Below, one piece after another: positions 1 to 59,610 of a stretch of 64,000 bases of DNA; positions within the stretch are counted from its first letter, which is position 1; every line of letters begins with the position of its first letter. The stretch comes from Gammaproteobacteria bacterium (lineage in GTDB: Bacteria; Pseudomonadota; Gammaproteobacteria; Chromatiales; Chromatiaceae). The position numbers and the translations under genes were made by a program. The stretch is taken from NCBI GenBank assembly GCA_024227135.1, contig JAAELC010000373.1, positions 4,162 to 68,161 of the forward strand, written 5' to 3'. The notes below the pieces were generated by a model. It ran no database searches, was not told the DNA's origin, and saw nothing but the letters and a program-made list of their open reading frames with translations.

Positions 1-112
1 TTAGTCGAGTTCGTTAGGGCATCCGAATCGTTATGCGGAATCATATCTTCTCCCCGTTAGTCGAGTTCGATAGGGCATCCGAGTCGTTATGCGGAATCAT
101 GTCTTTTCCCTG
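1..112. repeat. Tandem direct repeat, 2 x 56 bp, starting at the window edge
   Basis: Copy 1 (1-56) is ttagtcgagttcgttagggcatccgaatcgttatgcggaatcatatcttctccccg. Copy 2 (57-112) is ttagtcgagttcgatagggcatccgagtcgttatgcggaatcatgtcttttccctg. There are 5 mismatches and no gaps. Copy 2 carries the stop codon and last 5 codons of the 97..543 CDS. Confidence 0.9.
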
Positions 113-543
113 TTGATCCAATCCGACAGGGTATCCGAACGCCTGTAGACGGTGCCGGTAAAAAAACCGACCAGCTTATCTTCCCCGGCTTTCACCTCGA
201 TATTATACAGACCGGTTCGACCCGTACGGCTCTGTTCCCTGGCCACGGCGGTCAGAATGTCTCCCACCCGGCTGGCAGCGGGGAAATTGATCTGTGCCGA
301 AAGGGCCACCGCCACTTTACCGTGGGAGTTGGACGCCACGGCGAAAGCAAAATCCGCCAGGCTGAAGGTGACCCCACCGTGGGTCATGCCCACGGCGTTG
401 AGCATATTTTCGGTAACTTCCATGGTTACCCGGCAAAACCCCGGTTCCACCGCTTCGAGCTGCATGCCGAGCAGGTTGGCAAACCGGTCTTCCCGCTGCA
501 TCCATTGACCGATTTCGGTTGCCTGTGAAGGATCGTCTGGCAT
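97..543 (-). CDS. PaaI / 4HBT-type hotdog-fold acyl-CoA thioesterase
   Basis: 148-aa ORF with the hotdog thioesterase core NAVGMTHGGVTFSLADFAFAVA. Only a 14-bp gap separates it from the upstream CBS gene. Confidence 0.8.
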   Translation of the reverse strand: MPDDPSQATEIGQWMQREDRFANLLGMQLEAVEPGFCRVTMEVTENMLNAVGMTHGGVTFSLADFAFAVASNSHGKVAVALSAQINFPAASRVGDILTAVAREQSRTGRTGLYNIEVKAGEDKLVGFFTGTVYRRSDTLSDWINREKT

Positions 544-23800: not shown

Positions 23801-24253
23801 TTATCTGACACTCGTGAGTTGGGCGAGAATCAATTCTTCGCTCTTTATCTGCCTCAGCTTGTTACAGAAGGCCATGTTGCCGAACAGTGTTGCCAGTTTT
23901 GCCAGTAGATCCAGATGCTCCTGCGTCGCTTGTTCAGGGACGATGAGTCCAAAAGCAAGGTCTACCGGCTGGTTGTCGATGGCATCGAACTGAATCCCCT
24001 CCTGCAGTTGTATGAACGCACCCAGTGCATTGTCTATCCCGGGTATTCGGGCATGGGGCAGGGCGATTCCCTGTCCCAGTCCGGTGCTACCCAGTCGCTC
24101 TCTCTCGAGGAGCTTGTTAACTATTCTCTGGGCATCCATTTTTGGAATAGAAGAGGCGAGTAGTCCTCCCAGTTCTTCCAAAACCCGTTTTTTGCTGGCG
24201 GCTTTGCTCTGGCAGACTATGCGGCCGGCGATGAGAAAGTGCGCGGGAAACAT
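23801..24253 (-). CDS. ptsN: PTS-Ntr EIIA component PtsN
   Basis: The track ORF runs to 24451. The internal ATG at 24253 gives 150 aa. The PTS EIIA-2 phosphorylation site GIALPHARI is present. Confidence 0.88.
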   Translation of the reverse strand: MFPAHFLIAGRIVCQSKAASKKRVLEELGGLLASSIPKMDAQRIVNKLLERERLGSTGLGQGIALPHARIPGIDNALGAFIQLQEGIQFDAIDNQPVDLAFGLIVPEQATQEHLDLLAKLATLFGNMAFCNKLRQIKSEELILAQLTSVR

Positions 24254-24343
24254 TTTTTTTCCAGTGTATCTGTTTGTTACTGTACTGTTGCCATGTGTCA
24301 GATGCAGTGGACCAGGCAATTTATTGGGAGTTCCTGCCGGGAA

Positions 24344-24508
24344 CGAGCCAAGGGCTGCGAAAACAATGAACCGCCCGGCCCTGCTTGTCTCCTGGACCAG
24401 CTTCCGCGTTGTGGGAAAGGGTACACGGAACGGCTGTGCACCCCTTTCCACCCCTCGTATCTGAACCAGAATTCAACACAATTACCGGACATCCATTAAT
24501 TTCCGTGG
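24344..24508 (-). repeat. Intergenic structured repeat element, copy A (hpf-ptsN spacer)
   Basis: By eye the minus-strand sequence is roughly 75-80% identical over about 165 nt to 36659..36827 on the plus strand. Shared blocks are TGGTTCAGAT, GTGGAAAGGGG, CCACAACGCGGAA and TTTTC.GC.GCCCT. A central ~41-nt hairpin is GTGGAAAGGGGTGCAC...GTGTACCCTTTCCCAC. Confidence 0.8.
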
Positions 24509-24666
24509 CCCTAAATGGCAATCAATGACAGCAAGTTATCGAAGGTACGATGGGAAGTGGGGTGTTTCTCCCCGACCTGATTCCATAGTAGTTCGTTTCC
24601 AGCAGTTTTTCTTTCCATTTCTATCGACTATTGCGGCTTGATGAATGGTCCGCACTTAATACCCGA

Positions 24667-24996
24667 TTAGTTTTCCACGGTGTCCATGCCCTTGGGCAGG
24701 GCACCGCTGCGATGGTTGGTGTGTTTTTCCTTATGCTTTTTGACTTGCCGATCAATCTTGTCCACCAGTCCATCGATTGCGGCATACATATCCTCTTCTT
24801 CGCACTCGGCAAATACGTCAGTTCCGTTCAGATGAAGAGATGCCTCTGCCTTCTGACGCAGTTTTTCTACACTTAGAATGACGTGGACATTGGTCACATG
24901 GTCGAAATGACGCTCCAGGCGTTCGAACTTGGAATTCACGTAGCTTCTTAGTGCTTCGGTGATGTCCACATGGTGACCGGTAAGGCTGATTTGCAT
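24667..24996 (-). CDS. hpf: Ribosome hibernation promoting factor (short HPF/YhbH type)
   Basis: 109 aa starting MQISLTGHHVDITEALRSYVNSKFERLERHFD. It lies 23 bp after the rpoN stop. Confidence 0.92.
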   Translation of the reverse strand: MQISLTGHHVDITEALRSYVNSKFERLERHFDHVTNVHVILSVEKLRQKAEASLHLNGTDVFAECEEEDMYAAIDGLVDKIDRQVKKHKEKHTNHRSGALPKGMDTVEN

Positions 24997-25019: not shown

Positions 25020-26516
25020 CTAGATGAGGCGCTTTCGCTCATTAGATGGCGGAATCGCCATCGATTCGCGGTACTTTGCTACTGTTCTGCGCGCCACTTT
25101 GATTCCCTGGTCGGCGAGTATTCCTGCCAGTTTGTTGTCACTTAACGGTTTCTCCGGTTTTTCCGCTGCAATCAGTTTCTTTATCAGTGCACGGATTGCA
25201 ATGGCAGAGCACTCTCCGCCGGTCGTGGTCCCAACGTGGCTGGAGAAAAAATATTTGAATTCGAACGTGCCACGAGGAGTGTGCATGTACTTTTGAGTGG
25301 TGACGCGGGAGATCGTCGACTCATGCATGTCGAGGGCTTCCGCGATATCTCTCAGTACCAGTGGTCGCATTGCTTCCGGTCCGTGCTCGAAGAATCCGCG
25401 TTGGAATTCGGTAATTTTAGTGGCCACTCTGAGCAGTGTCACGTTACGGCTGATCAGGCTTTTGATGAACCACCGGGCTTCCTGCATGTGGTTCTTGAGG
25501 TAGTTGTTATCGTTGCTGTTGTCTGCACGTCTTATCAGGCTTGCATATTCCGGGTTGATTCGCAGACGGGGGGTGGAGTCCGGATTCAGGTCCACATGCC
25601 AGTTTCCTTCGCGCTTGGTGACGAAGACATCCGGCACGATGTATTCCGGTTCTGATTCCGCGACCAGTGATCCAGGACGCGGAGCCATTGAGCGGATAAG
25701 TTTCGTGACTTCCGCCAGTTTGGTATCGTTGATTTTGAGGCGCCGCTTGATCTGGACATGATCCTGCTGGGCAAGCAGCTCGAAATGGTCGCCTACCAAC
25801 TTGATCGCCAGCTCCAGGGCGGGCTGGGGCCGGCATTGCTTGAGCTGCAGTAACAGGCATTCCCGTGGGTCCCGGGCACCCACACCCGGAGGTTCGAATT
25901 GCTGGATTCTGTGCAGAACCGCCTCGACCTCCTCTACGCCCAGGTTTTCCTCATCCAATCCGTGGAGGATATCTTCAAGACTGGCTTTCAGGTAGCCATC
26001 CTCATCGATACCGTCGATGATCGCTGTTGCGATCAGGTGGTCGGAATCACCGAATGGCGTGAGATTAAGTTGCCAGACCAGGTAATCGTAGAGGGACCTT
26101 GTGGTGCGTCGTTGGGTTAGAAAATCGTTGTCGGGCCGGTCGTTGCTGCTGGCGCCGGAGCTTGGGGGCAATGTGCTGTCGTAAACATCATCCCACCCGC
26201 TGTCCACGCCTAGTTCTTCCGGGATGGTGTTCGGCTCGGCAGCCAGTTCAGTTTCGTTGTTGGTGTCGTTTTGAGGACTTACGGCTTCATTATCCCCGGA
26301 ATTGCCTGACTCCTGGGTCGATTGCTGATTGGCACCATTGAGCTCTTCCCTGGTGTTTCCCTCCTCTTCCGTCTCCAGCATCGTGTTGGAGTCCAGCGCC
26401 TCCTGAATTTCATTTTTCAACTCCAGAGTGGACAGCTGCAGCAGACGTATCGCCTGCTGCAGCTGCGGAGTCATTGTCAGGTGTTGCCCGAGGCGAAGCT
26501 GTAGTGACTGCTTCAT
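25020..26516 (-). CDS. rpoN: RNA polymerase sigma-54 factor
   Basis: 498 aa with N-terminus LQLRLGQHLTMTPQLQQAIRLLQLS. The C-terminal region contains the RpoN box ARRTVAKYR. Confidence 0.96.
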   Translation of the reverse strand: MKQSLQLRLGQHLTMTPQLQQAIRLLQLSTLELKNEIQEALDSNTMLETEEEGNTREELNGANQQSTQESGNSGDNEAVSPQNDTNNETELAAEPNTIPEELGVDSGWDDVYDSTLPPSSGASSNDRPDNDFLTQRRTTRSLYDYLVWQLNLTPFGDSDHLIATAIIDGIDEDGYLKASLEDILHGLDEENLGVEEVEAVLHRIQQFEPPGVGARDPRECLLLQLKQCRPQPALELAIKLVGDHFELLAQQDHVQIKRRLKINDTKLAEVTKLIRSMAPRPGSLVAESEPEYIVPDVFVTKREGNWHVDLNPDSTPRLRINPEYASLIRRADNSNDNNYLKNHMQEARWFIKSLISRNVTLLRVATKITEFQRGFFEHGPEAMRPLVLRDIAEALDMHESTISRVTTQKYMHTPRGTFEFKYFFSSHVGTTTGGECSAIAIRALIKKLIAAEKPEKPLSDNKLAGILADQGIKVARRTVAKYRESMAIPPSNERKRLI

Positions 26517-27939: not shown

Positions 27940-28489
27940 AGCGTCCTCTCACGTCAGCGAGCAGTTTGATTCGCACCGGCTTCTTGAACCAGGTTTGCAT
28001 TCCCGTGGATTCAGCCCAGCTGTTGCGGCTCTCAAGGTACACGTACTCTTCTGTTTCGGCATAATTCTGCTCAGGGTGTATCGTCAGATTTGTCGTCGTT
28101 AAATGCAACGGTTTGATGTCAGGGGCTTCCTCGCGATCAATCTGCACTTTTCCATTGAGCAGGACGATTTCCCTGTCACCCGAGATCCATCCTGTGTCAG
28201 AGGTAATTCTCCAGGGGGGATTTTTTTCTTCGAAGACCGTCATTCTGGGTTTTATCAGTTCGGTGCTGTCGTCATCGGGATAGTGGCGCATTTCTTCCGC
28301 TGACAGGCGCTTGTCCGGCAGCCCATTCAAGCCCATGGTGGTCGCTGTGAACTGCTCCAGAATGAAGTCCGGACTGTGGGGCAGGGGGCTGTACGAAGGT
28401 TCCTCGGTGTTGTACTGCAGCAGCCACCAGCTGCCAGCGGCCAGCAATCCTGCCCCCGCTATGGAGAGGTATCTGGGTGGCAGTGTCAA
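27926..28489 (-). CDS. lptC: LPS export system protein LptC
   Basis: 187 aa with a single N-terminal TM segment. It lies between kdsC and lptA and overlaps both. Confidence 0.8.
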   Translation of the reverse strand: MTLPPRYLSIAGAGLLAAGSWWLLQYNTEEPSYSPLPHSPDFILEQFTATTMGLNGLPDKRLSAEEMRHYPDDDSTELIKPRMTVFEEKNPPWRITSDTGWISGDREIVLLNGKVQIDREEAPDIKPLHLTTTNLTIHPEQNYAETEEYVYLESRNSWAESTGMQTWFKKPVRIKLLADVRGRYEAE

Positions 28490-29007
28490 AGATAGGACTC
28501 CAATGTCGATTTCAGGGTACCCTGGGCCTCCATCAACAGCTCACAAACCTCCCGCGCGGCACCCCGTCCACCGGATGAGGTGGTTATCCAGTGGGCGTGA
28601 CGGTTCACGAACTTATGCCCGTCACTCACACCCACAGCAAGTCCTACCTGGCCCATGATTGGTAAATCCACCACATCGTCACCTACATAGGCGATTTGCT
28701 CGTTTGGCAGCCCTATTTTATCCTTTAAATCTTCGAATGCCGATAGTTTATTCGATTTTCCCTGGTAGATATGCTCAATCCCCAGACTCTTCATTCGTCG
28801 ACTGACCAGCTGGGAGTTGCGTGCTGTAATTATACCGATGGCAACACCCGTAGCCTGGACCATTTTCATGCCCAGGCCATCCTTGGAGTTGAATGCCTTG
28901 AATTCCTCCCCGTCATTTCCCAGGTAGAGGCTGCCGTCTGTCAACACGCCGTCGACATCGAAGATAAGCAGTTTGATCCCGGCTGCTCTTTTCAATATTT
29001 CCTGCAT
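28486..29007 (-). CDS. kdsC: 3-deoxy-D-manno-octulosonate 8-phosphate phosphatase
   Basis: HAD motif LLIFDVDGVLTDG and GDDVVDLP, 173 aa. Confidence 0.9.
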   Translation of the reverse strand: MQEILKRAAGIKLLIFDVDGVLTDGSLYLGNDGEEFKAFNSKDGLGMKMVQATGVAIGIITARNSQLVSRRMKSLGIEHIYQGKSNKLSAFEDLKDKIGLPNEQIAYVGDDVVDLPIMGQVGLAVGVSDGHKFVNRHAHWITTSSGGRGAAREVCELLMEAQGTLKSTLESYL

Positions 29008-29429
29008 GGTAAATCCTCTTTAGTCATCCGCACCGGAACAGCAGCGGCATCCGTGGATTCTCCGAAGCGGCTGATCTCCGCCAGAGAAACTGCGCAAAGA
29101 GATATCTGACTCAGGGGCGGTGACAGACCCGGATTCTGTGTATTTCGGTCCATAGCGATGGCGGGACAGGTGATGTAGCAGAAAGAATGATAACAAATCA
29201 ATGATCATCCAGGTTTCCAGGATCCGAGAAATTGCTGCCTGGCAGGGTCGGAGGAGATCGCTGTGTGCCGGTCAGGGTGGTAAAAAACTTTGCTGATCCC
29301 CGGCCTTTGCAGTTCATTCAGGTATCCCATGCTCACCCTCTATCGGGACTGGCAGCAGGCGGCTTTCGTACCGATTCAGGCATGAGTAGTTGATCTGGAG
29401 GGCTTCAGTCGACGTCATACTGCCTGATT

Positions 29430-30497
29430 TCAGACGACGCCTGCACGCAGCATGTCATGCATATTCAGGGCGCCGACGAGGCGTTTATCCGAATCCACGA
29501 CCAGCAGGGCATTGATCTTGTCGTCCTGCATGATTCTCAATCCCTCAGCAGCCAGAATATGAGACTCCACTGTCCTGCATCCACGGGTAATCACTTCGGA
29601 AATACTGCAGCGGTGAAAATCCACCTCACGGTCCAGGGTACGGCGCAGGTCCCCGTCAGTAAATATTCCAGTCAGTCGTCCATCGTCGTCCACGATGGCT
29701 GTCATGCCCAGCCCTTTATTCGTCATCTCGATCAGCGCCTCCCGAAGCGCAGCAGATTCACTGACCACGGGAATTTTATCCCCTGAGTGCATAATATCCC
29801 CGATATGGAGCAGCAGGCGCCTTCCCAGACTACCTCCGGGGTGGGAACGGGCGAAATCGAGTTCTGTAAAGCCTCTGGCTTCGAGCAGTGCGACCGCAAG
29901 CGCATCCCCCATAGCCAGTGTGGCTGTGGTGCTCGAGGTAGGCGCCAGGTTAAGAGGGCATGCTTCCTGAGCCACGCTCACGTTGATATGCACATCGGCT
30001 TCCCGGGCCAGGTTGGACTCCGGAGCGCCGGTCATGGCAATCAGGGGCGCCCCCAGGCGCTTGATAATGGGGATGATCGTCAACAGCTCTTTGGTTTCCC
30101 CGGAGTTGGAGAGCGCGAGGACCACATCCTCGGCCAGAATCATCCCGAGATCCCCATGGCTGGCCTCCCCGGGGTGAACGAAAAAGGAGGGTGATCCCGT
30201 GCTGGCCAGAGTGGCGGCTATTTTGTTGCCGATGTGCCCGGATTTTCCCATTCCGGTCACCACGATACGGCCTTTGCAGGCAAGCATGAAAAAGCAGGCC
30301 CGGGAAAAGTCCTCTGATATGCTTTCTGTCAGCGCCAGGACAGCGGCCGCTTCGTTCTTGATGACGGCCAGCCCCAGGGCCTGAAGCCGCCTGGACTCCT
30401 CGTTGTCATATTCGGCGGTCAATAGCTCCGTCTCCGATGGAAGAGGGGCGGTTGATTCATGTCCACAGTATGGCTTGTTTGTCGATGAAGTCTGCAC
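29430..30497 (-). CDS. kdsD: Arabinose-5-phosphate isomerase (SIS plus 2x CBS)
   Basis: SIS motif VVTGMGKSGHIGNKIAATLASTGSPSFFVHPGEASHGDLG and C-terminal CBS pair. The N-terminus is about 30 aa longer than usual, so the start is uncertain. Confidence 0.88.
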   Translation of the reverse strand: MQTSSTNKPYCGHESTAPLPSETELLTAEYDNEESRRLQALGLAVIKNEAAAVLALTESISEDFSRACFFMLACKGRIVVTGMGKSGHIGNKIAATLASTGSPSFFVHPGEASHGDLGMILAEDVVLALSNSGETKELLTIIPIIKRLGAPLIAMTGAPESNLAREADVHINVSVAQEACPLNLAPTSSTTATLAMGDALAVALLEARGFTELDFARSHPGGSLGRRLLLHIGDIMHSGDKIPVVSESAALREALIEMTNKGLGMTAIVDDDGRLTGIFTDGDLRRTLDREVDFHRCSISEVITRGCRTVESHILAAEGLRIMQDDKINALLVVDSDKRLVGALNMHDMLRAGVV

Positions 30498-35616: not shown

Positions 35617-36654
35617 ATGGACATCGCTGAACTACTCGCTTTCAGTGTTAAACACGAAGCTTCAGATTTACATCTGTCTTCCGGGTTGCCACCCATGATC
35701 CGGGTGGATGGGGATATCCGACGGATCAACGTTCCGGCTCTGGAGCACAAAACGGTCCACGAGCTTGTCTACGACATCATGAACGACAAGCAGCGCAAGG
35801 ATTATGAAGAGTTTCTCGAAACGGACTTTTCCTTCGAAATCCCGGGGCTGGCGCGATTTCGTGTCAACGCTTTCAACCAGGACCGGGGGGCGGCTGCGGT
35901 CTTTCGAACCATTCCATCCAAGGTACTGACGCTGGAAGATCTGGGATGTCCGGATACCTTTCGCGACATCGTCAACGTACCCCGGGGGCTGGTTCTGGTA
36001 ACAGGCCCGACCGGATCCGGTAAGTCTACGACGCTGGCGGCTATGGTGGACTACAAGAACGACAACGATTATGCCCACATTCTGACCATCGAAGATCCCA
36101 TTGAGTTTGTGCATGTCAGCAAAAAGAGTCTCATAAACCAGCGAGAGGTGCATAGGGATACCCTGGGCTTTGCGGAGGCGCTTCGTTCAGCACTGCGTGA
36201 AGACCCTGATATCATCCTGGTCGGTGAGCTGCGGGATCTTGAGACCATTCGCCTGGCATTGACCGCTGCGGAGACCGGACATCTGGTCTTCGGTACCTTG
36301 CACACCAGTTCGGCCGCCAAGACGATCGACCGTATTATCGACGTTTTCCCGGCAGCGGAGAAGGGCATGGTGCGCTCCATGCTTTCGGAGTCGCTGCGGT
36401 CGGTGATTGCTCAATCGCTGCTGAAGAAGATTGGCGGGGGACGGACTGCCGCCTGGGAAATCATGGTGGGAACTCCGGCAATCCGAAACCTGATTCGTGA
36501 AGACAAAGTGGCTCAGATGTACTCATCGATTCAAACCGGTCAGGCCCATGGTATGCAGACGCTGGACCAGCACCTGCTGGAACTGGTAAAAAAGGGTATG
36601 ATTAGTCGACTGGATGCCCAATCGAAGGCGGCAAACAAAGATGTTTTCAACTAA
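35617..36654 (+). CDS. pilT: Type IV pilus retraction ATPase PilT
   Basis: 345 aa with ASDLHLSSGLPPMIRVDGD, Walker A GPTGSGKST and the PilT signature AHGMQTLDQ. Confidence 0.95.
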   Translation: MDIAELLAFSVKHEASDLHLSSGLPPMIRVDGDIRRINVPALEHKTVHELVYDIMNDKQRKDYEEFLETDFSFEIPGLARFRVNAFNQDRGAAAVFRTIPSKVLTLEDLGCPDTFRDIVNVPRGLVLVTGPTGSGKSTTLAAMVDYKNDNDYAHILTIEDPIEFVHVSKKSLINQREVHRDTLGFAEALRSALREDPDIILVGELRDLETIRLALTAAETGHLVFGTLHTSSAAKTIDRIIDVFPAAEKGMVRSMLSESLRSVIAQSLLKKIGGGRTAAWEIMVGTPAIRNLIREDKVAQMYSSIQTGQAHGMQTLDQHLLELVKKGMISRLDAQSKAANKDVFN

Positions 36655-36658
36655 GGGT

Positions 36659-36827
36659 CGCGGAAATCAATAAATGTCCAGAAATTGCGCTGGATTTTGG
36701 TTCAGATTCAAGGCGTGGAAAGGGGCGCATAGTTGTTCTATGCAACCTTTTCCACAACGCGGAAACTGGGCCAAAAGACCAGCAAGACTGGATAACTATT
36801 TTTTTTCCGCGGCCCTAAGCCTGCTCG
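36659..36827 (+). repeat. Intergenic structured repeat element, copy B (fills the pilT-pilU spacer)
   Basis: Homologous to 24344..24508 on the minus strand. The central hairpin at 36715-36755 is GTGGAAAGG-ggc-GCATAG-ttgtt-CTATGC-aa-CCTTTTCCAC. CGCGGAAA at 36659 and 36758 can each pair with TTTCCGCG at about 36805. Confidence 0.8.
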
Positions 36828-36857: not shown

Positions 36858-37982
36858 GTGGATTTTGAACTGCTACTGAAACTTGTAGCTGAGAAAAGGG
36901 CTTCGGACCTTTTTATCACGGTGGGAATGCCCCCTTGCATCAAGCTTGATGGTCGTCTCATGCCGATTTCCAAGAAGCGGCTGGACGAAGAACAGACCAG
37001 GGACATGGTGCTGGGGACCATGTCTCCTGCCCAGCAAGAGGAGTTTGCCCAGACCAAGGAGTGCAATTTCGCCATCAGCTCCGCTGGTGGGGGGCGGTTC
37101 AGGGTAAGCGCATTCGTGCAGCGGAATTCGGTAGGGATGGTGTTACGTCGCATCGAGGGAATAATCCCCGAACTCGACGAACTGAAGCTGCCCCCGTTGC
37201 TGAAGGACCTTGCCATGACGAAGCGTGGTCTGGTGATCTTTGTCGGTGCCACGGGAACAGGAAAATCCACCTCGCTGGCCGCATTGATCGGCTTTCGAAA
37301 TCACAATAGCACCGGTCACATCGTTACCATCGAGGACCCGATCGAATTTACCCATCAGCACGCGGGTTGCATCGTCACCCAGAGAGAGGTGGGAATAGAT
37401 ACCGAATCCTATAATATTGCGCTCCAGAATACCCTGCGCCAGGCCCCGGATGTCATACTGATCGGAGAGATTCGCAGTCGGGATACCATGGATTATGCCA
37501 TTGCTTTTGCAGAAACCGGTCACCTGTGTCTTTCCACGCTTCATGCCAATAATGCCAACCAGGCGCTGGACCGTATCATCAATTTTTTCCCCGAAGAACG
37601 GCGGGACCAGTTATTCATGGACCTGTCATTGAATCTGAGGGCTATCGTTGCCCAGCAGCTGGTGCGGCGTACCGATGGGGATGGGCGGTTGGCGGCGGTT
37701 GAAATTCTGGTTAACACCCCCCTGGCTTCAGATCTGATAAGAAAGGGGGAGGTCCACAAGCTTAAAGACCTGATGAAGCGATCCACCGAGCAAGGCATGA
37801 TTACCTTCGATCAGGCGCTCTACACGCTCTACAAACAGGGTGAAATCAGTTACGAAGACGCCATTCTTTGCGCCGACAGCGCCAACGAGGTCCGTTTGAT
37901 GGTCAAGCTGGGCAGTGGGGAAGTGGATAAGTACCCCTCCAAGCTGGGATCGGTATCATTGCTGGACGATCAGGACTACTGA
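36858..37982 (+). CDS. pilU: PilT-family ATPase PilU
   Basis: 374 aa with a GTG start after a G-rich RBS. Motifs are ASDLFITVGMPPCIKLDG and Walker A GATGTGKST. It lies downstream of pilT. Confidence 0.9.
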   Translation: MDFELLLKLVAEKRASDLFITVGMPPCIKLDGRLMPISKKRLDEEQTRDMVLGTMSPAQQEEFAQTKECNFAISSAGGGRFRVSAFVQRNSVGMVLRRIEGIIPELDELKLPPLLKDLAMTKRGLVIFVGATGTGKSTSLAALIGFRNHNSTGHIVTIEDPIEFTHQHAGCIVTQREVGIDTESYNIALQNTLRQAPDVILIGEIRSRDTMDYAIAFAETGHLCLSTLHANNANQALDRIINFFPEERRDQLFMDLSLNLRAIVAQQLVRRTDGDGRLAAVEILVNTPLASDLIRKGEVHKLKDLMKRSTEQGMITFDQALYTLYKQGEISYEDAILCADSANEVRLMVKLGSGEVDKYPSKLGSVSLLDDQDY

Positions 37983-50093: not shown

Positions 50094-53000
50094 ATGAGGG
50101 AAGCTCAAGACCACAGTGCGCTTAAATGGGTGAGGGAGGAACTCGAGAAGCTGATCGAACAAGCGCGTCACGCCCTTGAAACCTACGTGGATGTCCCGGA
50201 CGACAGGCAATCCATCGAGCAATGCATCACCGCTCTGCACCAGACCCGCGGCACTTTGCAGATGATGCAGCTCGAAGGAGCTGTCATGCTGGCCGAAGAG
50301 ATGGAACGGGTGGCGGTTGCCATGCGGGACAACACGACCAAGCGTGCCAGTGAATCCGCCGAAGCATTGATGCTGGGAATGGTTCAGTTGCCGGAGTACC
50401 TGGAGAAACTCGAAGGGGGGGCTCGGGATATCCCCTTACTGATGATGCCCATGCTCAACGAGCTGCGGGCAACCCGGGGAGAAGCCCAATTATCCGAGCT
50501 GGCACTCTTCGCCCCCGGGCTGGATGAAAGACTGGCTTCGGAGAAGGTTCAGGGCAAGGCCAATCCTGCACTGGAAACCCTCGCTCGACGCAACCGGTTT
50601 CGCTACCACAGCTCTCTGCTGGAATGGTATCAGGGGAACGACGTCAATGGTGGTTTGCTGGGTATAGGTGAGTTGCTGCAGGACCTGGAGCTGGCATCTG
50701 GAACACTGCAACTGAAACGGCTGTTCAGGGTTGGCCGGGCTGCAATCGAACTGCTGCGTGAGAGTGGCGTTAAACCGGGTGTCGCTGCCAAGGAGCTGTT
50801 TGGTCGGCTGGACCGGGAAATCAAAAGAATTATCGATTGCGGGGAGCAGGAAGTTGCCCAAAAGCCCCCTAACGATCTGTTGAAGGACTTTCTTTTCTTC
50901 GTCGTCTATGACGAATCCGGTAATCCGTTGATCGAGGAAGTCAAACGGGAGTTCGGGCTGGAGAATACGATCCTGTCCAAGACGGAGATAGATCGTGAAC
51001 GGCAGGGACTGCATGCGCCAGGGCGGGATCTGATGCAGTCGGTGAAAGGGGCTATCGGTCCTGAACTGACAGCAATCAAAGACGGGGTCGATCTCTATAT
51101 CCGGGACGGAACATCGGATACCAAGCGGCTCGATGTGCTTGAGCAACCCATGCGCCGAATCGCCGATACACTGGGCATGATCGGTCAGGGTGCGCTTCGT
51201 GAGCGGTTGACGCGCCAGGCGGACAGTATCGCTGAATACCGGGGATCGGGTGAGCCGCCTGATGAGCAGGCCCTCATGGCCATGGCCGGCGACATACTCT
51301 ACATTGAAACCTCCCTTGAGAATCTAGCCAGTTCCCGCCACCAGTCGCTGATGCTGGACTCGAGTTCGTTGATGCTGGATTCGGAGGAATCCGGTGCGGC
51401 TCAGCTGCCCCAAGGCGAGTTCGCCCGGCTGGTCGATATGGTGATGCGTGAAGCCGAAGTCGATATGGCCCGAAACAAAGACGCCATTGTCAGCTTTATC
51501 GAAACACCGACAGATAAATCCCTGTTGGCCGAAGTACCCAAGCGCTTCATCTCTATTGCAGGCGCTTTCAAGATCATGGAGCTTTCCCATGCCGCCGGCT
51601 TGTTGGAGGGGTTGTCAGCCTATGTAGAGAGCAGTTTTCTATCCAGTGATATGCCGGAGACTGAGGATCTCAATCTCTTTGCCGATGCGCTCACTGCTGT
51701 CGAGTACTACATGCAGGCCATCTCCGAGGGGCGTGGAATCCAGGAGGAGGTACTGCTTGTTGCCGAGGAAGCGCTCAGCCAGTTGATGGGTGAACCGCTG
51801 GAGATTCCTCCGGTTGAGGTTCTGGGACCGGTGAACCAGGTCCCTGAGTCACCTGATCAAACCGCGGTGTCTGTGGATGAGAGCCCGGAACCGCTGGAAC
51901 AGCCGGAGGTTATTACCGGTTCCGACGAAGAGTCGGCTGGCGAAGAGATCGATGATGAGATCCTGGAAATATTCATCGAGGAAGCACGATCGGAGATCGA
52001 GAGCATCGATGAAAATCTGCTCCGCTGGGTCATGAATCAGGATGACCGGGAGGCGATGGCGACATTGCGCCGGTCATTTCATACCCTTAAAGGAAGCGGA
52101 CGATTGGTGGGTGCGTTGACCATCGGTGAATTCTGCTGGTCGATCGAAAATCTTCTCAATCGGGTTATCGATGGTACAGCATCCGTTTCACCGGAAATGC
52201 TGGAACTGCTGGAGCAGACCAGGAAAGCTCTGCCAGGACTCGTGGATGCTCAGGAAGCTGGTCGTTCCCATGATGTGGATCTGAACCCCCTGATGGAGAA
52301 GGCATTCGCTCTGTCTGTTCAGGAGACACCCTCCTCGACTATGGGAGCAGGGGATGGTGAAGATATTCCGGAGACTGAACCGGAAGCAGCAGAGGACACT
52401 CGCTCTGCCGGTTCCTCATCTCCAGGAGACGTTGTAGTGCCGTTTCCCGGAAGGATCGATGCTGTTGAAGTACCGGATGTACCCGGTTTCGATCCCGCTG
52501 CTCCCGATGTCGGGTCGGAACCGGACCTGCCACCACCCATCGAACTGGATGCGGAGCTGTTGTCGATATTCGATAAAGAGACGAAAGGACATCTGGACAC
52601 CTTGCGGCGGTTTCTCGATGAGTGTCGCCGGAACCCCGATTCCTGTGACATTGGTACCAGTGATGTGGAGCGGGCATTGCACACACTCCATGGGAGTGCG
52701 GACATGGCCGGCGTGGAGGCCATTGCCGAGATCAGCGGGGGACTGGAGTCCTGGGTCAAGGAGATGAAACCTGTCACCACAGCGGTGGATGAACGGGTTC
52801 TGGATCTTGTGGACCGCTGTACGGTATCCATGGCAGCGGTTCTTGGGGTCATCAACGTTCCCGGTGGTGAGTTGCCGGATTGGCAGGCACTGACTGTTGA
52901 GATAGAGCAGGCCCGGGATTCCCTGAGTCAGGAGCAGGAAGTACAGGAAATACAGAAAGTACAGGAACAGCAGTTGGAGGCCACCGGGGCATCGGTGAGC

Positions 53001-55547
53001 CACGACAAACAACCCGAGCCACTCTCCACTGTTGCTGGTTCGGCGTACGAGTTTGAGAATCTGGACGGAGATGCAGAGCTCACCGAGATATTTCTCGAAG
53101 AAGCGAAGGAGTTGCTCGAATCCGTAGAGGGTTCTTTGAGTCATTGGGAGCAGGAACCTGATTCGGCTGAACCCGTTGCTGATCTTAAAAGAACGCTCCA
53201 CACGCTCAAGGGCGGGTCCCGGCTGGCTGGAGCCATGCCGGTGGGCGAACTGAGTCATACCTTCGAATCGTTGCTGAGTGAAATCGATCAGGCGCGCATG
53301 ACAGCGACACCTGAGGTCCTTGGTCTTTCAAGGGAGGTGACTGATCGACTTGCAGAACAGATAGAAGATATCGAGCAGAGCCCGAGGGTGCGCAAATGCG
53401 ATGACCTCATCGTTCGGCTGGAGCGGTTGATCGCCGGAGAAAAGGAGCCGCCCAAAGCAGAGAAGCAGGAAGTACCTGATGTTGCTGAGTCGGATTTGGA
53501 CGTCCAACAGGATCAGGTTGCTGAAACCGGGGCGGAAGGGGATACCGTTGCTGAGAAAGGTGCAGTTGAAGCAGCAACAGCAAAGGATGCTGCTGATAAG
53601 CCCAAGAAAAAGAAGAGTGAGCAGATAGAGCAATGGCAGTCGCCAGCGGCCACTCTTGAGCACAAACAACCGGCCAGCACTGCGCCGGAGCCCCGATCCA
53701 CTCGAGCTCTCCGGTCCCGGGATATTATCCGGGTGCCAGCGGATGACCTCGATCGGTTGGTCAACAACGCTGGTGAAGTCAGTATCTTCCGCGCTCGACT
53801 GGAGCAGCAGAACACCGCCCTGGGCTTTAATCTCTCGGAGTTGGAGCAGACGGTGGTACGCCTGCGCGCCCAGCTGCGGAAACTGGAGATCGAAACTGAG
53901 ACCCAGATTCTCTTCCGTTACGAAAGAGACAAGCAGGAAGACAGACTGGAAGAGGCCTTTGATCCGCTGGAGCTGGATCGGTTCTCTAACATGCAGCAGC
54001 TGTCTCGTGGACTGTTGGAAACGGTAAACGATCTTGCCAATATCAATGGCTTTCTGGATGAGCTGCGAAAGGAAACTGACACGCTGTTATTGCAACAGTC
54101 CCGAGTGTCGACTGATTTACAGGATGGGTTGCTGCGTACACGAATGGTTCCATTCGCACAGCTTGTTCCCCGGTTGCAGCGGGTTGTGCGCCAGACTGCC
54201 GCAACCTTGGGTAAGAAAGTCGATATGCAGGTGAACCGGGCCGAAGGGGAGCTCGATCGTGGCATATTGGATCGAATAATCGGTCCCCTCGAGCACATTC
54301 TTCGAAACGCGGTATCTCACGGCATAGAAATGCCGAAAGAGCGAAAAAGCGCGGGTAAGAAGGAGACTGGCCGGATTCTTCTGGATCTGAATCGGGAAGG
54401 TAACGATGTCATTCTGACCATCTCCGATGATGGCAAAGGCATCAATATTGAGTCCATTCGCAAGCACGCGATCAAGATGGGACTGCTGGATCCCAAAGCC
54501 GATGTCCCGGAAAGCGATATTCTGCAATTTGTGCTGGAGCATGGTTTCAGTACCCAGCAGGAGGTCAATCAGATATCGGGTCGTGGCGTCGGGCTTGATG
54601 TTGTTGTGAAGGAAGTCAAGCAGCTGGGTGGGGCGCTGGAGATCAAGTCGTCCCTGGGTCAGGGGACCGGATTTATTCTGCGACTCCCATTGACACTTGC
54701 CATTACTGATGCATTGGTGGTGGAAATGGGTGATGAAATCTACGCTATTCCCCATTCCAGTATCGAAGGTGTCGTACGCTTGAGCAGAAAGCAGTTGCTC
54801 GACAGTTACGAGGGCCGGATGGATCGTTACAACTACGCAGAGCATGATTACCAGGTGCGCTACCTGGGCGGTCTGCTGAATGCCAGTCCTCCCAGTCTGC
54901 CTGATTCACGAAAGTGGTTCCCATTGTTGCTGGTCAGAGCAGGCGAACACCGTGTTGCGTTGCAGGTGGACAATATTCTAGGGAACCGTCAGATTGTCGT
55001 AAAATCAGTAGGCCCCCAGATCAGTACGGTGCGCTGGATTTCCGGAGGAACCATACTGGCAGATGGACGGGTCGCGCTGATTCTTGATGTGACCGCTCTG
55101 GTGCGCATGGACGCGGCACAGAAAGTGCTCACCCGAGCCGAGGATGCAGGACAGCCAGGGCAGGCCGCGGAAGAGAAGCTGGTCATGGTTGTGGATGACT
55201 CCATCACGGTCCGTAAAGTGACTGGTCGAATTCTGGAAAGACACGGGATGCGTGTGGTCACGGCCAAGGATGGTGTGGATGCGGTGACTGCACTGCAGGA
55301 ATATCATCCTGATTTGATGCTGTTGGATATTGAAATGCCGCGGATGGATGGTTACGAACTTGCGCGGCATATGCGCCACACCAGGGAGTTGGAAGATATT
55401 CCGATTATCATGATCACTTCCCGGACCGGTGAAAAACACCGAAGACTGGCCATGGAGGTCGGTGTGACGCGTTATCTGGGTAAACCCTACCAGGAGATTG
55501 AGCTTCTGGAAAATATCAACGATGTGCTTTCCGGAGCGGATGAGTGA
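50094..55547 (+). CDS. chpA: ChpA/PilL hybrid CheA-type histidine kinase (multi-Hpt, HATPase, CheW, receiver)
   Basis: 1817 aa with several Hpt-like modules (LHQTRGTL, FHTLKGSGRL, LHTLHGSADM, LHTLKGGSRL). Further domains are a CheA dimerisation/HATPase region (HILRNAVSHGIE, DDGKGI, GRGVGLDVV), a CheW domain and a C-terminal REC (VVDDSITVRK...LLDIEMPRMDG). Confidence 0.93.
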   Translation: MREAQDHSALKWVREELEKLIEQARHALETYVDVPDDRQSIEQCITALHQTRGTLQMMQLEGAVMLAEEMERVAVAMRDNTTKRASESAEALMLGMVQLPEYLEKLEGGARDIPLLMMPMLNELRATRGEAQLSELALFAPGLDERLASEKVQGKANPALETLARRNRFRYHSSLLEWYQGNDVNGGLLGIGELLQDLELASGTLQLKRLFRVGRAAIELLRESGVKPGVAAKELFGRLDREIKRIIDCGEQEVAQKPPNDLLKDFLFFVVYDESGNPLIEEVKREFGLENTILSKTEIDRERQGLHAPGRDLMQSVKGAIGPELTAIKDGVDLYIRDGTSDTKRLDVLEQPMRRIADTLGMIGQGALRERLTRQADSIAEYRGSGEPPDEQALMAMAGDILYIETSLENLASSRHQSLMLDSSSLMLDSEESGAAQLPQGEFARLVDMVMREAEVDMARNKDAIVSFIETPTDKSLLAEVPKRFISIAGAFKIMELSHAAGLLEGLSAYVESSFLSSDMPETEDLNLFADALTAVEYYMQAISEGRGIQEEVLLVAEEALSQLMGEPLEIPPVEVLGPVNQVPESPDQTAVSVDESPEPLEQPEVITGSDEESAGEEIDDEILEIFIEEARSEIESIDENLLRWVMNQDDREAMATLRRSFHTLKGSGRLVGALTIGEFCWSIENLLNRVIDGTASVSPEMLELLEQTRKALPGLVDAQEAGRSHDVDLNPLMEKAFALSVQETPSSTMGAGDGEDIPETEPEAAEDTRSAGSSSPGDVVVPFPGRIDAVEVPDVPGFDPAAPDVGSEPDLPPPIELDAELLSIFDKETKGHLDTLRRFLDECRRNPDSCDIGTSDVERALHTLHGSADMAGVEAIAEISGGLESWVKEMKPVTTAVDERVLDLVDRCTVSMAAVLGVINVPGGELPDWQALTVEIEQARDSLSQEQEVQEIQKVQEQQLEATGASVSHDKQPEPLSTVAGSAYEFENLDGDAELTEIFLEEAKELLESVEGSLSHWEQEPDSAEPVADLKRTLHTLKGGSRLAGAMPVGELSHTFESLLSEIDQARMTATPEVLGLSREVTDRLAEQIEDIEQSPRVRKCDDLIVRLERLIAGEKEPPKAEKQEVPDVAESDLDVQQDQVAETGAEGDTVAEKGAVEAATAKDAADKPKKKKSEQIEQWQSPAATLEHKQPASTAPEPRSTRALRSRDIIRVPADDLDRLVNNAGEVSIFRARLEQQNTALGFNLSELEQTVVRLRAQLRKLEIETETQILFRYERDKQEDRLEEAFDPLELDRFSNMQQLSRGLLETVNDLANINGFLDELRKETDTLLLQQSRVSTDLQDGLLRTRMVPFAQLVPRLQRVVRQTAATLGKKVDMQVNRAEGELDRGILDRIIGPLEHILRNAVSHGIEMPKERKSAGKKETGRILLDLNREGNDVILTISDDGKGINIESIRKHAIKMGLLDPKADVPESDILQFVLEHGFSTQQEVNQISGRGVGLDVVVKEVKQLGGALEIKSSLGQGTGFILRLPLTLAITDALVVEMGDEIYAIPHSSIEGVVRLSRKQLLDSYEGRMDRYNYAEHDYQVRYLGGLLNASPPSLPDSRKWFPLLLVRAGEHRVALQVDNILGNRQIVVKSVGPQISTVRWISGGTILADGRVALILDVTALVRMDAAQKVLTRAEDAGQPGQAAEEKLVMVVDDSITVRKVTGRILERHGMRVVTAKDGVDAVTALQEYHPDLMLLDIEMPRMDGYELARHMRHTRELEDIPIIMITSRTGEKHRRLAMEVGVTRYLGKPYQEIELLENINDVLSGADE

Positions 55548-58087: not shown

Positions 58088-59512
58088 TCAGTATCGGTAG
58101 TGATCCGGTTTGTAGGGTCCTTCCATGGGTACACCTATATAGTCGGCCTGATGCTCACTCAGTTTTGAAAGGTTGGCTCCAATCTTACTGAGATGCAGTC
58201 TGGCGACCTCTTCGTCGAGTTTCTTGGGTAGCGTATAGACCTTGTTTTCGTACCGGTCACCATTGCTCCACAATTCTATCTGAGCCAGTGTCTGGTTGGT
58301 GAAGGAATTGGACATGACGAAGCTCGGGTGGCCGGTTGCACAACCCAGATTTACCAGGCGTCCCTCCGCCAGCAGAATGATGCGTTTGCCATCAGGAAAT
58401 ATGACGTGATCCACTTGTGGTTTGATGTTTTCCCACTGATATTGCTCGAGGCTTGCACAGTCAATTTCATTGTCGAAATGACCGATATTGCAGACGATGG
58501 CCTGGTCTTTCATCTCAGTGAGGTGGTCGTGAGTGATCACATGATAGTTGCCAGTGGCAGTAACGAAAATATCTGCCTGACTGCAGGCTGTATCCATTTC
58601 CACCACACGATATCCCTCCATTGCGGCCTGGAGCGCGCATATGGGGTCGATCTCCGTCACCCAGACTGTTGCACCAAGTCCTTTAAGAGACTGGGCGCAT
58701 CCTTTTCCCACATCGCCGTAACCGAGCACCAGGGCTATTTTTCCAGCGATCATGACATCGGTGGCGCGCTTTATGCCGTCTACCAGGGATTCCCGACAGC
58801 CATAGAGATTGTCAAATTTGGATTTGGTGACCGAGTCATTGACGTTGATTGCAGGGAATGGCAGGTCGTTACGTTCCTGCATCTGGTACAGCCGGTGTAC
58901 GCCGGTGGTGGTCTCTTCGGTCACACCCTGTATGTTCTTGAGAATGTTAGAGTACCAGCCGGGTTGCGCCGCCACTCTTTTGCGGATGGCAGCATATAGT
59001 ACCCGTTCTTCTTCGCTGGTTGGATGGTCCAATACGGAGTCATCCTGTTCCGCTTTGGCTCCCAGATGGATGAGCAGGGTGGCGTCTCCCCCGTCATCCA
59101 GAATCATGTTGGGTGTTCCACCGTCATCCCATTCGAAAATTCTATGGGTGAAATTCCAGTACTCTTCCAGACTTTCGCCCTTGAAGGCAAATACCGGGAT
59201 GTTCCGCGCAGCGATGGCGGCGGCGGCATGATCCTGGGTAGAGAATATGTTGCAGGAAGCCCAGCGTACTTCTGCGCCCAATGCGATGAGCGTTTCGATC
59301 AACGCCGCTGTCTGGATGGTCATATGCAGGCTGCCGGCAATGCGGGCACCCTTCAAAGGCTGGGAGTCGGCGTATTTTGCCCTGGTGGCCATCAGGCCGG
59401 GCATTTCGGTTTCCGCGATGCTTAATTCCTTGCGACCCCAGTCGGCAAGGGACATATCCGCTACATGGTAGTTGTCAGAAATTCCACTCATAGTCTGAGT
59501 ATTGGCGTTCAT
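58088..59512 (-). CDS. ahcY: Adenosylhomocysteinase
   Basis: The internal ATG at 59512 ([29 protein letters not shown]) follows a GGAGA RBS. The NAD-binding motif is [14 protein letters not shown]. The protein is 474 aa. Confidence 0.95.
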
Positions 59513-59535
59513 GTTTTCGGTTCTCCGTAGAAAAA

Positions 59536-59610
59536 CGTAAGCGCCGTTGTTGTTGCTCCCCTCCGAGCCTGGCAGAGACTGCGGTCTCTGTTGCAACGCT
59601 TCTCGGAGGG
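59536..59610 (-). promoter_or_regulatory. SAH riboswitch (S-adenosylhomocysteine-sensing, ahcY leader)
   Basis: Minus-sense sequence is CCUCCGAGAAGCGUUGCAACAGAGACCGCAGUCUCUGCCAGGCUCGGAGGGGAGCAACAACAACGGCGCUUAC. P1 is CUCCGAG/CUCGGAG and the hairpin is AGAGAC/GUCUCU. The pseudoknot is AAGCG/CGCUU. The hallmark GCCAGGCUCGG and AACGGCGCU blocks are present. Confidence 0.85.

What the first reader, a model, noticed from the sequence alone, without database searches (positions are those of the whole stretch)
24254..24666. 413-bp spacer splits hpf from ptsN and contains copy A of a ~165-nt structured repeat
hpf and ptsN are normally almost contiguous, yet here 413 bp with no credible ORF separate them. 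Positions 24344-24508 (minus strand, the sense of the operon) align by eye at roughly 75-80% identity with the pilT-pilU spacer. The alignment has only 1-3-nt gaps. Shared blocks are C.CGGAAAT, ATGTCC, TGGTTCAGAT, GTGGAAAGGGG.GCA.AG, CCACAACGCGGAA.CTGG.CCA, AGCA and TTTTC.GC.GCCCT. The centre folds into a ~41-nt hairpin. Relative to copy B, one stem pair is T-A in one copy and C-G in the other, and one G-C becomes G-U. That pattern argues that the structure is under selection. Each copy holds 5-6 GGA triplets (for example AAUGGAUGU), so CsrA/RsmA binding is one speculative idea. The flanking 158 nt and 90 nt of the spacer remain unexplained.
Basis: seen in the sequence. Interest (0 to 1): 0.7.

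Follow-up and report, generated by a model that had tools for sequence, protein, structure and literature searches.

The report
Palindromic MITE-like repeat inside two operons
The 165-nt repeat is real, but it looks like two old, decaying copies of a small hairpin-shaped mobile-type DNA insertion sitting between genes of two unrelated operons, which is an ordinary kind of bacterial repeat rather than a new regulatory RNA.

Summary
A ~160-nt segment of that spacer recurs between pilT and pilU (78.6% identity over 131 nt, E 4e-20; 73.5% end to end).

The interpretation needs revising. The element is not a 41-nt hairpin with flanks. Each copy is a full-length imperfect palindrome: one ~160-nt hairpin with terminal inverted repeats GGGYCRCGGAAAT...TTTYCGCRGCCC. 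Short direct repeats flank it (TAA/TAA at B, TTA/TTG at A). Both sites are empty in every relative examined. Removing copy B restores a normal 39-nt pilT-pilU spacer. Copy B sits at the pilT stop codon, and PilT is one residue shorter than in relatives.

GGA triplets are not enriched and are mostly base-paired. There is no Rfam match and no promoter or terminator consensus.

I found no further copy in the window, relatives' loci, species-representative genomes, metagenomes, plasmids or E. coli genomes. The public scans had low sensitivity and the source genome (a metagenome-assembled genome, MAG) could not be searched.

Best reading: a lineage-specific, decayed MITE/ERIC-like repeat that is co-transcribed as an mRNA hairpin. 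About 250 nt of the hpf-ptsN spacer remain unexplained.

The parts
24352..24511 (-). Copy A core (GGG...CCC), 160 nt. It is a full-length imperfect palindrome in the sense orientation of the rpoN-hpf-ptsN operon.
   Evidence: MFE -79.0 kcal/mol. On the longer segment 24335-24515, MFE -81.1 and z = -4.3.
24499..24511 (-). Copy A 5' terminal inverted repeat, GGGCCACGGAAAT
   Evidence: It pairs with the 3' arm in the MFE structure.
24352..24363 (-). Copy A 3' terminal inverted repeat, TTTTCGCAGCCC
24411..24451 (-). Copy A central 41-nt hairpin, GTGGAAAGGGGTGCAC...GTGTACCCTTTCCCAC. This is the tip of the long hairpin.
24512..24514 (-). TTA directly 5' of copy A. It is a possible target-site duplication partner of the TTG at 24349-24351.
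   Evidence: Sequence read. The match is 2 of 3, so this is only suggestive.
24349..24351 (-). TTG directly 3' of copy A
24512..24666 (-). 5' remainder of the hpf-ptsN spacer, 155 nt. Unexplained: no unusual structure, no repeat, no promoter consensus.
   Evidence: z = -0.33. No similarity elsewhere in the window. Promoter scans negative.
24254..24351 (-). 3' remainder of the hpf-ptsN spacer, 98 nt. Unexplained.
   Evidence: z = -0.26..
36655..36815 (+). Copy B core (GGG...CCC), 161 nt. It is a full-length imperfect palindrome in the sense orientation of pilT-pilU.
   Evidence: MFE -85.2 kcal/mol. On the longer segment 36651-36830, MFE -85.3 and z = -8.45.
36655..36667 (+). Copy B 5' terminal inverted repeat, GGGTCGCGGAAAT
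   Evidence: pair I10
36804..36815 (+). Copy B 3' terminal inverted repeat, TTTCCGCGGCCC
36715..36755 (+). Copy B central 41-nt hairpin
36652..36654 (+). TAA directly 5' of copy B. It is the pilT stop codon and a direct repeat of the TAA at 36816-36818.
36816..36818 (+). TAA directly 3' of copy B. It is either a putative target-site duplication or part of the element end.
36819..36823 (+). GCCTG immediately after copy B. It matches the last codon plus stop (GCC TGA) of pilT in five relatives and is probably the displaced old gene end.
   Evidence: The reading is an inference.
24667..24996 (-). hpf, the gene upstream of copy A
23801..24253 (-). ptsN, the gene downstream of copy A
35617..36654 (+). 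pilT, the gene upstream of copy B. It encodes 345 aa here and 345-347 aa in relatives (346 aa in the five whose gene ends were read).
36858..37982 (+). pilU, the gene downstream of copy B

Best explanation
Copies A and B are two old, diverged insertions of a small non-coding palindromic repeat of the MITE / ERIC / Correia type. The family appears specific to the lineage of this MAG, a Sedimenticola-related gammaproteobacterium.

Shown: each copy is ~160 nt with 12-13-nt terminal inverted repeats and palindromy over its whole length. Each sits at a place that is a short (24-41 nt) spacer in all relatives examined.

Inferred: the element was once mobilised in trans by a transposase encoded elsewhere. 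It landed in T(A/T)A sites, possibly with a 3-bp duplication. At pilT it landed one codon before the old stop, so that a TAA at its edge now ends the gene. It has since decayed neutrally.

Also inferred: because both copies lie inside operons in the sense orientation, with no promoter or terminator consensus, they are probably transcribed as part of the polycistronic mRNA. There they would form a long imperfect double-stranded hairpin. The most likely consequence, if any, is incidental: a processing or stability site (RNase III or RNase E type) that partly uncouples upstream and downstream cistrons, as described for Correia and ERIC elements. It is unlikely to be a dedicated regulatory RNA.

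The remaining ~250 nt of the hpf-ptsN spacer are not part of the element and are unexplained. They fit a general tendency of this genome to carry inflated intra-operon spacers.
For: 1. Two copies lie at unrelated loci: 78.6% identity over 131 nt, E = 3.6e-20. Both score as full-length matches to the covariance model at 195-205 bits.
2. They are full-length palindromes with terminal inverted repeats.
3. They have no coding capacity: no Pfam match, and the six-frame translation finds nothing among 5.8 billion proteins.
4. The sites are empty in relatives. hpf-ptsN is 24-26 nt in L002-L008. pilT-pilU is 24-41 nt in L011, L012 and L015. The window's 203 nt minus the element and one TAA leaves 39 nt.
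5. Direct trinucleotides flank the cores: TAA/TAA at B and TTA/TTG at A.
6. The pilT end is altered exactly at the junction, with a GCCTG remnant just after the element.
7. The substitution pattern fits neutral decay of a palindrome.
8. There is no Rfam family and no sigma-70, sigma-54 or terminator consensus.
9. Published definitions and precedents match: MITEs are <500 bp with TIRs of 4-30 bp, flanking direct repeats that fade with age, and stable stem-loop transcripts. Correia elements are cleaved by RNase III, and ERIC elements unmask an RNase E site (PMC10969869, PMC3184786).
Against: Only two copies are known, and the rest of the source genome could not be searched. No autonomous IS with the same ends was found in the window.

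The duplication is ambiguous. At B, the alignment with relatives fits insertion without duplication slightly better, because TTC AAC | GCC TGC lines up with TTC GCT GCC TGA. At A the direct repeat is only 2 of 3.

The element is not AT-rich (47-55% GC against 55% for the window), unlike typical MITEs.

74-79% identity is low for a recently amplified family.

The sense strand folds 16-25 kcal/mol better than the antisense strand in both copies. The neutral simulation has sd ~12, giving one-sided P ~0.01-0.04 for A and ~0.1 for B. This is a modest hint of constraint at the RNA level.

No transcription data exist.
Confidence: 0.6

Rival explanations
1. The element is a functional structured RNA module kept by selection. 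It would be an intra-operon processing or insulator hairpin, or the precursor of a small RNA, and it may have arisen from a mobile repeat that was then domesticated.
For: Both copies are in the sense orientation. The sense strand folds much better than the antisense strand (A -79.0 vs -53.7, B -85.2 vs -69.3 kcal/mol), which is beyond most neutral simulations. The identical blocks of 10, 11 and 13 nt all lie in the central half of the element, and two of them run into predicted internal loops. Pair retention is slightly above random (51-52 vs 46 expected, P = 0.02-0.06).
Against: Compensatory changes occur at chance level. G-U-creating and A-C-creating changes are balanced. A 13-nt identical run is expected by chance at 78% identity over 160 nt (about 1.4 expected; my own arithmetic). 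The pair-retention and stem-depletion tests are biased, because the structure was derived from one of the two sequences. The gene contexts are unrelated. The element is absent from all relatives and from Rfam. It has no promoter or terminator of its own.
Confidence: 0.15
2. The element is a palindromic repeat mobilised without target duplication. It would be REPIN-like, moved as a single-stranded hairpin by a RAYT / IS200-IS605-type tyrosine transposase, or spread by another mechanism that does not depend on terminal inverted repeats.
For: The whole element, not only its ends, is a hairpin. At pilT the alignment with relatives fits insertion of TAAGGG...CCCTAA between two codons with no duplicated target.
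Against: Read directly from the sequences printed, neither copy has a GTAG or CTAC head motif. From my own knowledge, 160 nt is longer than typical REPINs. The direct trinucleotides fit better as direct repeats than as inverted repeats in both copies (3/3 and 2/3 direct, against 2/3 and 1/3 inverted). No RAYT gene could be looked for outside the window.
Confidence: 0.12
3. The element is a transcription attenuator or terminator that separates hpf from ptsN and pilT from pilU.
For: It forms a very stable hairpin. A run of T lies near the 3' end of each copy (TTGTTTT in A, TTTTTTTT in B). The scan flags a weak terminator-like site inside A.
Against: The T run lies inside the 3' arm and pairs with the 5' arm, instead of following a compact GC-rich stem. 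The flagged sites have 5-bp stems and are no more frequent than in shuffles. The downstream genes ptsN-rapZ-npr and pilU have no detectable promoter of their own in the spacers, so strong termination would silence them.
Confidence: 0.05
4. The element is a CsrA/RsmA-binding sponge or site.
For: Each copy has five GGA triplets, including AUGGAU in A.
Against: The count is not above expectation (3.0-3.7 expected, P = 0.15-0.29; window average 3.35 per 166 nt). 9 of the 10 GGA have at least two of their three bases paired in the predicted long stem instead of lying in hairpin loops. They arise as the complements of TCC in a palindrome. There is no Rfam match to the CsrB/RsmY/RsmZ families.
Confidence: 0.02

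Closest known systems
ERIC (enterobacterial repetitive intergenic consensus) elements, ~127 bp MITE-like imperfect palindromes
   Same: Small and non-coding. They are imperfect palindromes over most of their length and lie in transcribed intergenic regions within or after operons. They are co-transcribed, and the hairpin can alter mRNA decay through RNase E (PMC3184786, PMC10969869).
   Different: No sequence similarity: a distant-mode blastn of copy B against 5,426 E. coli genomes, which carry ERIC copies, finds nothing. ERIC elements have a TA motif at both ends, whereas here the flanks are TAA/TAA and TTA/TTG. The element is 160 nt, not 127. The host is an unrelated Sedimenticola-like lineage.
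Correia repeat-enclosed elements (Neisseria MITEs, ~104-157 bp)
   Same: Similar size, terminal inverted repeats and insertion next to or inside operons. The transcript hairpin is cleaved by RNase III at the paired inverted repeats (PMC10969869). That is the mechanism I infer here as the most likely consequence.
   Different: From my own knowledge, Correia elements duplicate TA and carry an IHF site and promoter hexamers. No promoter consensus was found here. Only the ends of Correia elements pair, whereas here the entire element is palindromic. Sequence relatedness was not tested against Neisseria.
IS5-family-derived MITEs / PIF-Harbinger 'Tourist' MITEs with a 3-bp TWA duplication
   Same: The flanking trinucleotides TAA and TTA fit the TWA target that I recall for IS5-family subgroups and for Tourist elements. 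The ends start with GG.
   Different: This is a lead from memory, not a test. No transposase or full-length IS with these ends was available, and the duplication itself is unproven.
REP / REPIN elements mobilised by RAYT transposases
   Same: Extragenic, hairpin-forming and non-coding, and possibly inserted without a target duplication.
   Different: No GTAG head motif. The element is about twice the usual REPIN length. No RAYT gene could be examined.

Membership tests
MITE (prokaryotic miniature inverted-repeat transposable element) | Short (<500 bp) and without coding capacity | tested here: met
   160-161 nt. The overlapping ORFs have no Pfam match. The six-frame translation has no relative among 5.8 billion proteins.
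MITE (prokaryotic miniature inverted-repeat transposable element) | Terminal inverted repeats of ~4-30 bp | tested here: met
   GGGYCRCGGAAAT / TTTYCGCRGCCC in both copies. The palindromy extends through the whole element.
MITE (prokaryotic miniature inverted-repeat transposable element) | Flanking direct repeats from target-site duplication | tested here: inconclusive
   B has TAA/TAA (3 of 3) and A has TTA/TTG (2 of 3). At B, however, comparison with relatives fits an insertion without duplication equally well or better.
MITE (prokaryotic miniature inverted-repeat transposable element) | Multiple dispersed copies in the genome | tested here: inconclusive
   There are two copies 12 kb apart in 64 kb. 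Pattern scans of species-representative genomes and metagenomes gave only chance hits. My estimate of their sensitivity is only ~8-12% per diverged copy.
MITE (prokaryotic miniature inverted-repeat transposable element) | Presence/absence between related genomes (empty sites) | tested here: met
   Both sites are short spacers without the element in all relatives fetched. The covariance model finds no copy in 79 kb of their DNA. The relatives are distant (pilT 81% nt, PtsN 69% aa), so the timing is unresolved.
MITE (prokaryotic miniature inverted-repeat transposable element) | A cognate autonomous IS with the same ends that supplies the transposase | not testable with these tools
   No further match to the end sequence in the window. 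Nothing was found in plasmids. ISfinder and the remainder of the genome were not available.
ERIC | Sequence similarity to the ERIC consensus | tested here: not met
   No blastn (distant mode) match in 5,426 complete E. coli genomes.
REP/REPIN | Conserved GTAG head and an associated RAYT gene | tested here: not met
   Neither copy contains GTAG or CTAC (sequences printed). The RAYT gene is not testable.
Curated structured RNA families (Rfam 15, including GlmY/GlmZ, CsrB/RsmY/RsmZ, riboswitches, ribozymes) | Match to a covariance model | tested here: not met
   Nothing reaches the gathering score. At E <= 10 there are only chance-level hairpin matches.
CsrA/RsmA-binding RNA | Several GGA motifs exposed in loops, more than expected | tested here: not met
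   5 per copy against 3.0-3.7 expected (P = 0.15-0.29). 9 of the 10 have at least two of their three bases paired.
Intrinsic terminator | Compact GC-rich stem immediately followed by an unpaired U tract | tested here: not met
   Only 5-bp stems at background frequency. The T run is part of the 3' arm.

The most novel reading that the evidence does not exclude
The element could be a lineage-specific domesticated RNA module: a palindromic repeat retained in the sense orientation inside operons because its long G-U-rich mRNA hairpin serves as a processing or insulation site. It would set the relative expression of hpf versus ptsN-rapZ-npr and of pilT versus pilU. In the pilT case it also supplies the stop codon. 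The 16-25 kcal/mol advantage of the sense-strand fold in both copies is the only observation that points this way.
Probability: 0.12. Interest if true: 0.5.

Novelty: new member of a known kind. Interest (0 to 1): 0.25.

Why it matters
If the reading is right, this is a previously undescribed family of small palindromic repeats in an uncultured Sedimenticola-related lineage. Its value is practical.

- It explains abnormal spacers in two conserved operons.
- It warns against annotating a 216-aa PtsN that starts inside the element.
- It shows a repeat insertion that replaced the end of pilT and supplied its stop codon.
- It offers a natural case for testing how a 160-nt mRNA hairpin affects expression within the rpoN-hpf-ptsN-rapZ operon.

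It does not open a new class of system. Co-transcribed MITE hairpins that modulate mRNA fate are already documented for Correia and ERIC elements.

Tried and rejected
1. More copies in the window. blastn with word size 7, nhmmer --max and the covariance model with filters off find only A and B. The only other significant matches are on the opposite strands of A and B, because the element is a palindrome.
2. Copies elsewhere.
- Two exact-pattern scans of 185,579 species-representative genomes gave 0 hits and 2 chance hits in coding DNA of a Rubripirellula and a Zixibacteria MAG.
- One metagenome scan gave 1 chance hit, inside an ORF I recognised as glmU.
- Two viral-contig scans gave chance hits only.
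- Plasmids and E. coli genomes gave nothing.
- A chimeric query of all six reading frames of both copies against 5.8 billion proteins, meant to catch spurious ORFs called on other copies, gave nothing.
3. Retrieving the source MAG by exact protein look-up failed: the proteins are not on record. Only the protein accessions MCP3868946.1 and MCP3868959.1 were obtained.
4. Nested-element idea. Joining the two flanks of copy A gives no palindrome or inverted ends. Neither flank shows unusual folding or similarity elsewhere in the window.
5. GlmY/GlmZ analogy. I considered it because rapZ lies downstream. There is no Rfam match and no sigma-54 promoter, so I rejected it.
6. Strand-specific selection judged by G-U versus A-C changes: the counts are balanced, so I rejected it.
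7. Replication skew as the cause of copy A's G-rich sense strand. The plus strand of the window has positive GC skew, so this does not explain it.

Full report
**What is at the coordinates**

On the minus strand the window carries lptC-lptA-lptB-rpoN(25020-26516)-hpf(24667-24996)-ptsN(23801-24253)-rapZ-npr-ptsP. Pfam confirms Hpf, PtsN, RapZ, PilT and PilU. The hpf stop and the ptsN start are 413 nt apart (24254-24666). The PtsN N-terminus (MFPA.FL...) aligns with relatives from residue 1, so the start is right and the gap is truly intergenic. ORFs overlapping the spacer have no Pfam match.

**The repeat is real**

- The repeat finder pairs 24375-24524 with 36642-36791 (150 nt, 76%).
- blastn gives 78.6% over 131 nt, E = 3.6e-20.
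- A global alignment gives 122 of 166 identical positions and one 1-nt gap.

Copy B lies between pilT (ends 36654) and pilU (starts 36858) on the plus strand. Both copies therefore have the same orientation relative to their operons.

**Anatomy**

In fact each copy folds end to end into one imperfect hairpin of about 60 pairs. Over the exact elements the energies are -79.0 kcal/mol (A) and -85.2 kcal/mol (B). On slightly longer segments the z-scores are -4.3 and -8.5, and no shuffle of 200 folds as well.

The ends are inverted repeats:
- A: GGGCCACGGAAAT ... TTTTCGCAGCCC
- B: GGGTCGCGGAAAT ... TTTCCGCGGCCC

The cores run from GGG to CCC: 24511->24352 (160 nt) and 36655-36815 (161 nt). Immediately outside are TTA and TTG at A, and TAA and TAA at B. 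The 5' TAA of B is the pilT stop codon. These trinucleotides match better as direct repeats (2/3 and 3/3) than as inverted repeats (1/3 and 2/3).

**Source and relatives**

PtsN and PilT are 100% identical to proteins of one NCBI MAG named 'Gammaproteobacteria bacterium' (MCP3868946.1 and MCP3868959.1, on a 73.6-kb contig). The next PtsN relatives are only 69% identical. PilT relatives are 94-96% identical at the protein level and 81% at the DNA level. Named relatives are Sedimenticola and related symbionts. The source contig itself is not retrievable.

**Empty sites**

In seven loci from relatives the operon order is the same, and hpf-ptsN is 24-26 nt. In syntenic loci L011, L012 and L015 the pilT-pilU spacer is 30, 41 and 24 nt. 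The window's 203 nt minus the 161-nt core and one TAA leaves 39 nt. Copy B alone therefore accounts for that spacer.

All five relatives end pilT with ...TTC GCT GCC TGA. The window reads ...TTC AAC TAA [element] TAA GCC TGC.... PilT here is 345 aa (...KDVFN), against 346 aa in those five relatives (...KDTFAA) and 345-347 aa among the 120 listed relatives. The GCCTG right after the element looks like the displaced last codon and stop. I infer that the element landed one codon before the old stop and that a TAA at its edge now terminates pilT.

This alignment also weakens the 3-bp duplication reading at B, because TTC AAC | GCC TGC lines up with relatives without any extra TAA. Whether the target was duplicated is therefore unresolved.

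At hpf-ptsN the element explains only 160-166 of the 413 nt.

**Is the structure under selection?**

Of the 44 differences, 34 are transitions. Two transitions on the two sides of a pair always restore a Watson-Crick pair.

| Measure | Observed | Expected by chance | Source |
|---|---|---|---|
| Compensated pairs | 3-4 | 2.1-2.4 (P = 0.14-0.43) | |
| Tool's shuffle control | 3 pairs changed on both sides | 58 of 500 shuffles reach the observed values | |
| G-U-creating vs A-C-creating changes, copy A | 8 vs 6 | balanced | |
| G-U-creating vs A-C-creating changes, copy B | 2 vs 4 | balanced | |

The pair-level data therefore fit neutral decay of an ancestral palindrome. Pair retention (51-52 vs 46, P = 0.02-0.06) and depletion of changes in stems are slightly non-random. 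Both tests are biased, because the structure comes from one of the two sequences.

One asymmetry remains. The sense strand folds better than the antisense strand by 25.3 kcal/mol (A) and 15.9 kcal/mol (B). Simulated neutral decay gives sd ~12, with one-sided fractions of 0.01-0.04 and ~0.1. Replication skew does not explain it. I treat this as a modest hint that keeps a functional-RNA reading alive, not as evidence for it.

**Other functional ideas**

- GGA triplets: 5 per copy against 3.0-3.7 expected (P = 0.15-0.29). Nine of the ten have at least two of their three bases paired. The CsrA idea is not supported.
- Rfam: nothing at gathering thresholds, and only chance-level hairpin matches at E <= 10.
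- Promoters: no sigma-70 promoter consensus in either spacer and no sigma-54 consensus.
- Terminators: terminator-like hits are 5-bp stems at background frequency, and the T run lies inside the 3' arm.

**Search for further copies**

None in the window by blastn, nhmmer or the covariance model with filters off. None in 79 kb of relatives' DNA.

Exact-pattern scans of species-representative genomes, metagenomes and viral contigs returned only chance hits in coding DNA. Plasmids and E. coli genomes gave nothing. The six-frame translation found no spurious ORFs among 5.8 billion proteins.

These scans need 18-22 exact positions. By my estimate they would catch only about one diverged copy in ten, and the MAG itself may not be in the collections. 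The copy number in the source genome remains unknown.

**Conclusion**

The features match the published description of prokaryotic MITEs:
- <500 bp;
- TIRs of 4-30 bp;
- direct repeats that fade with age;
- stable stem-loop transcripts;
- insertion in intergenic regions (PMC10969869).

The closest functional precedents are ERIC and Correia elements. Both are co-transcribed, and their hairpins create RNase E or RNase III sites (PMC10969869, PMC3184786). There is no sequence relation to ERIC.

I file the element as a new, apparently lineage-specific member of that known kind, with confidence 0.6. The mobilising enzyme, the duplication and the copy number are untested.

The 155-nt and 98-nt flanks of copy A show no structure (z = -0.3 for each), no repeat and no signal. 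They stay unexplained. A second inflated spacer in the same gene cluster (kdsD-kdsC, 422 nt against 35 nt in L011) suggests that this genome tolerates extra intra-operon DNA in general.

Noticed in passing
window 29008-29429 (minus strand): The spacer between kdsD (29430-30497) and kdsC (28486-29007) is 422 nt, against 35 nt in the syntenic relative L011. It has no credible ORF, no unusual folding (z = +1.1) and no similarity to the hpf-ptsN flanks. It is a second unexplained inflated spacer in the same gene cluster.
   Followed up: partly
window 36640-36654 and 36816-36823: PilT ends ...KDVFN* (345 aa) here, against ...KDTFAA* (346 aa) in five relatives. GCCTG directly after copy B matches the relatives' last codon plus TGA stop. 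The insertion therefore seems to have replaced the gene's end and supplied its stop codon.
   Followed up: yes
window 23801-24451 (minus strand): A GTG-initiated ORF runs in frame from inside copy A through the 3' flank into ptsN (216 aa). Automatic annotation could call a falsely long PtsN. The conserved start is the ATG at 24253.
   Followed up: partly
window 24511-24618 (minus strand): A 35-codon ATG ORF in the 5' flank of copy A ends with a TAG that spans the element boundary. I saw no Shine-Dalgarno sequence, so it is probably chance.
   Followed up: no
window 1-139: A 56-nt unit is repeated 2.5 times in tandem (84% matches) and is cut by the window edge. Its 7-mer TTAGGGC also occurs at the element's end, which is expected by chance in 64 kb.
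   Followed up: no
window 59532-59610 (minus strand): An SAH riboswitch (RF01057, 66 bits, full length) lies at the 5' end of a 502-aa minus-strand ORF (58088-59596). I did not identify that ORF.
   Followed up: no
window 50094-55547 (plus strand): An 1817-aa ORF, not examined.
   Followed up: no
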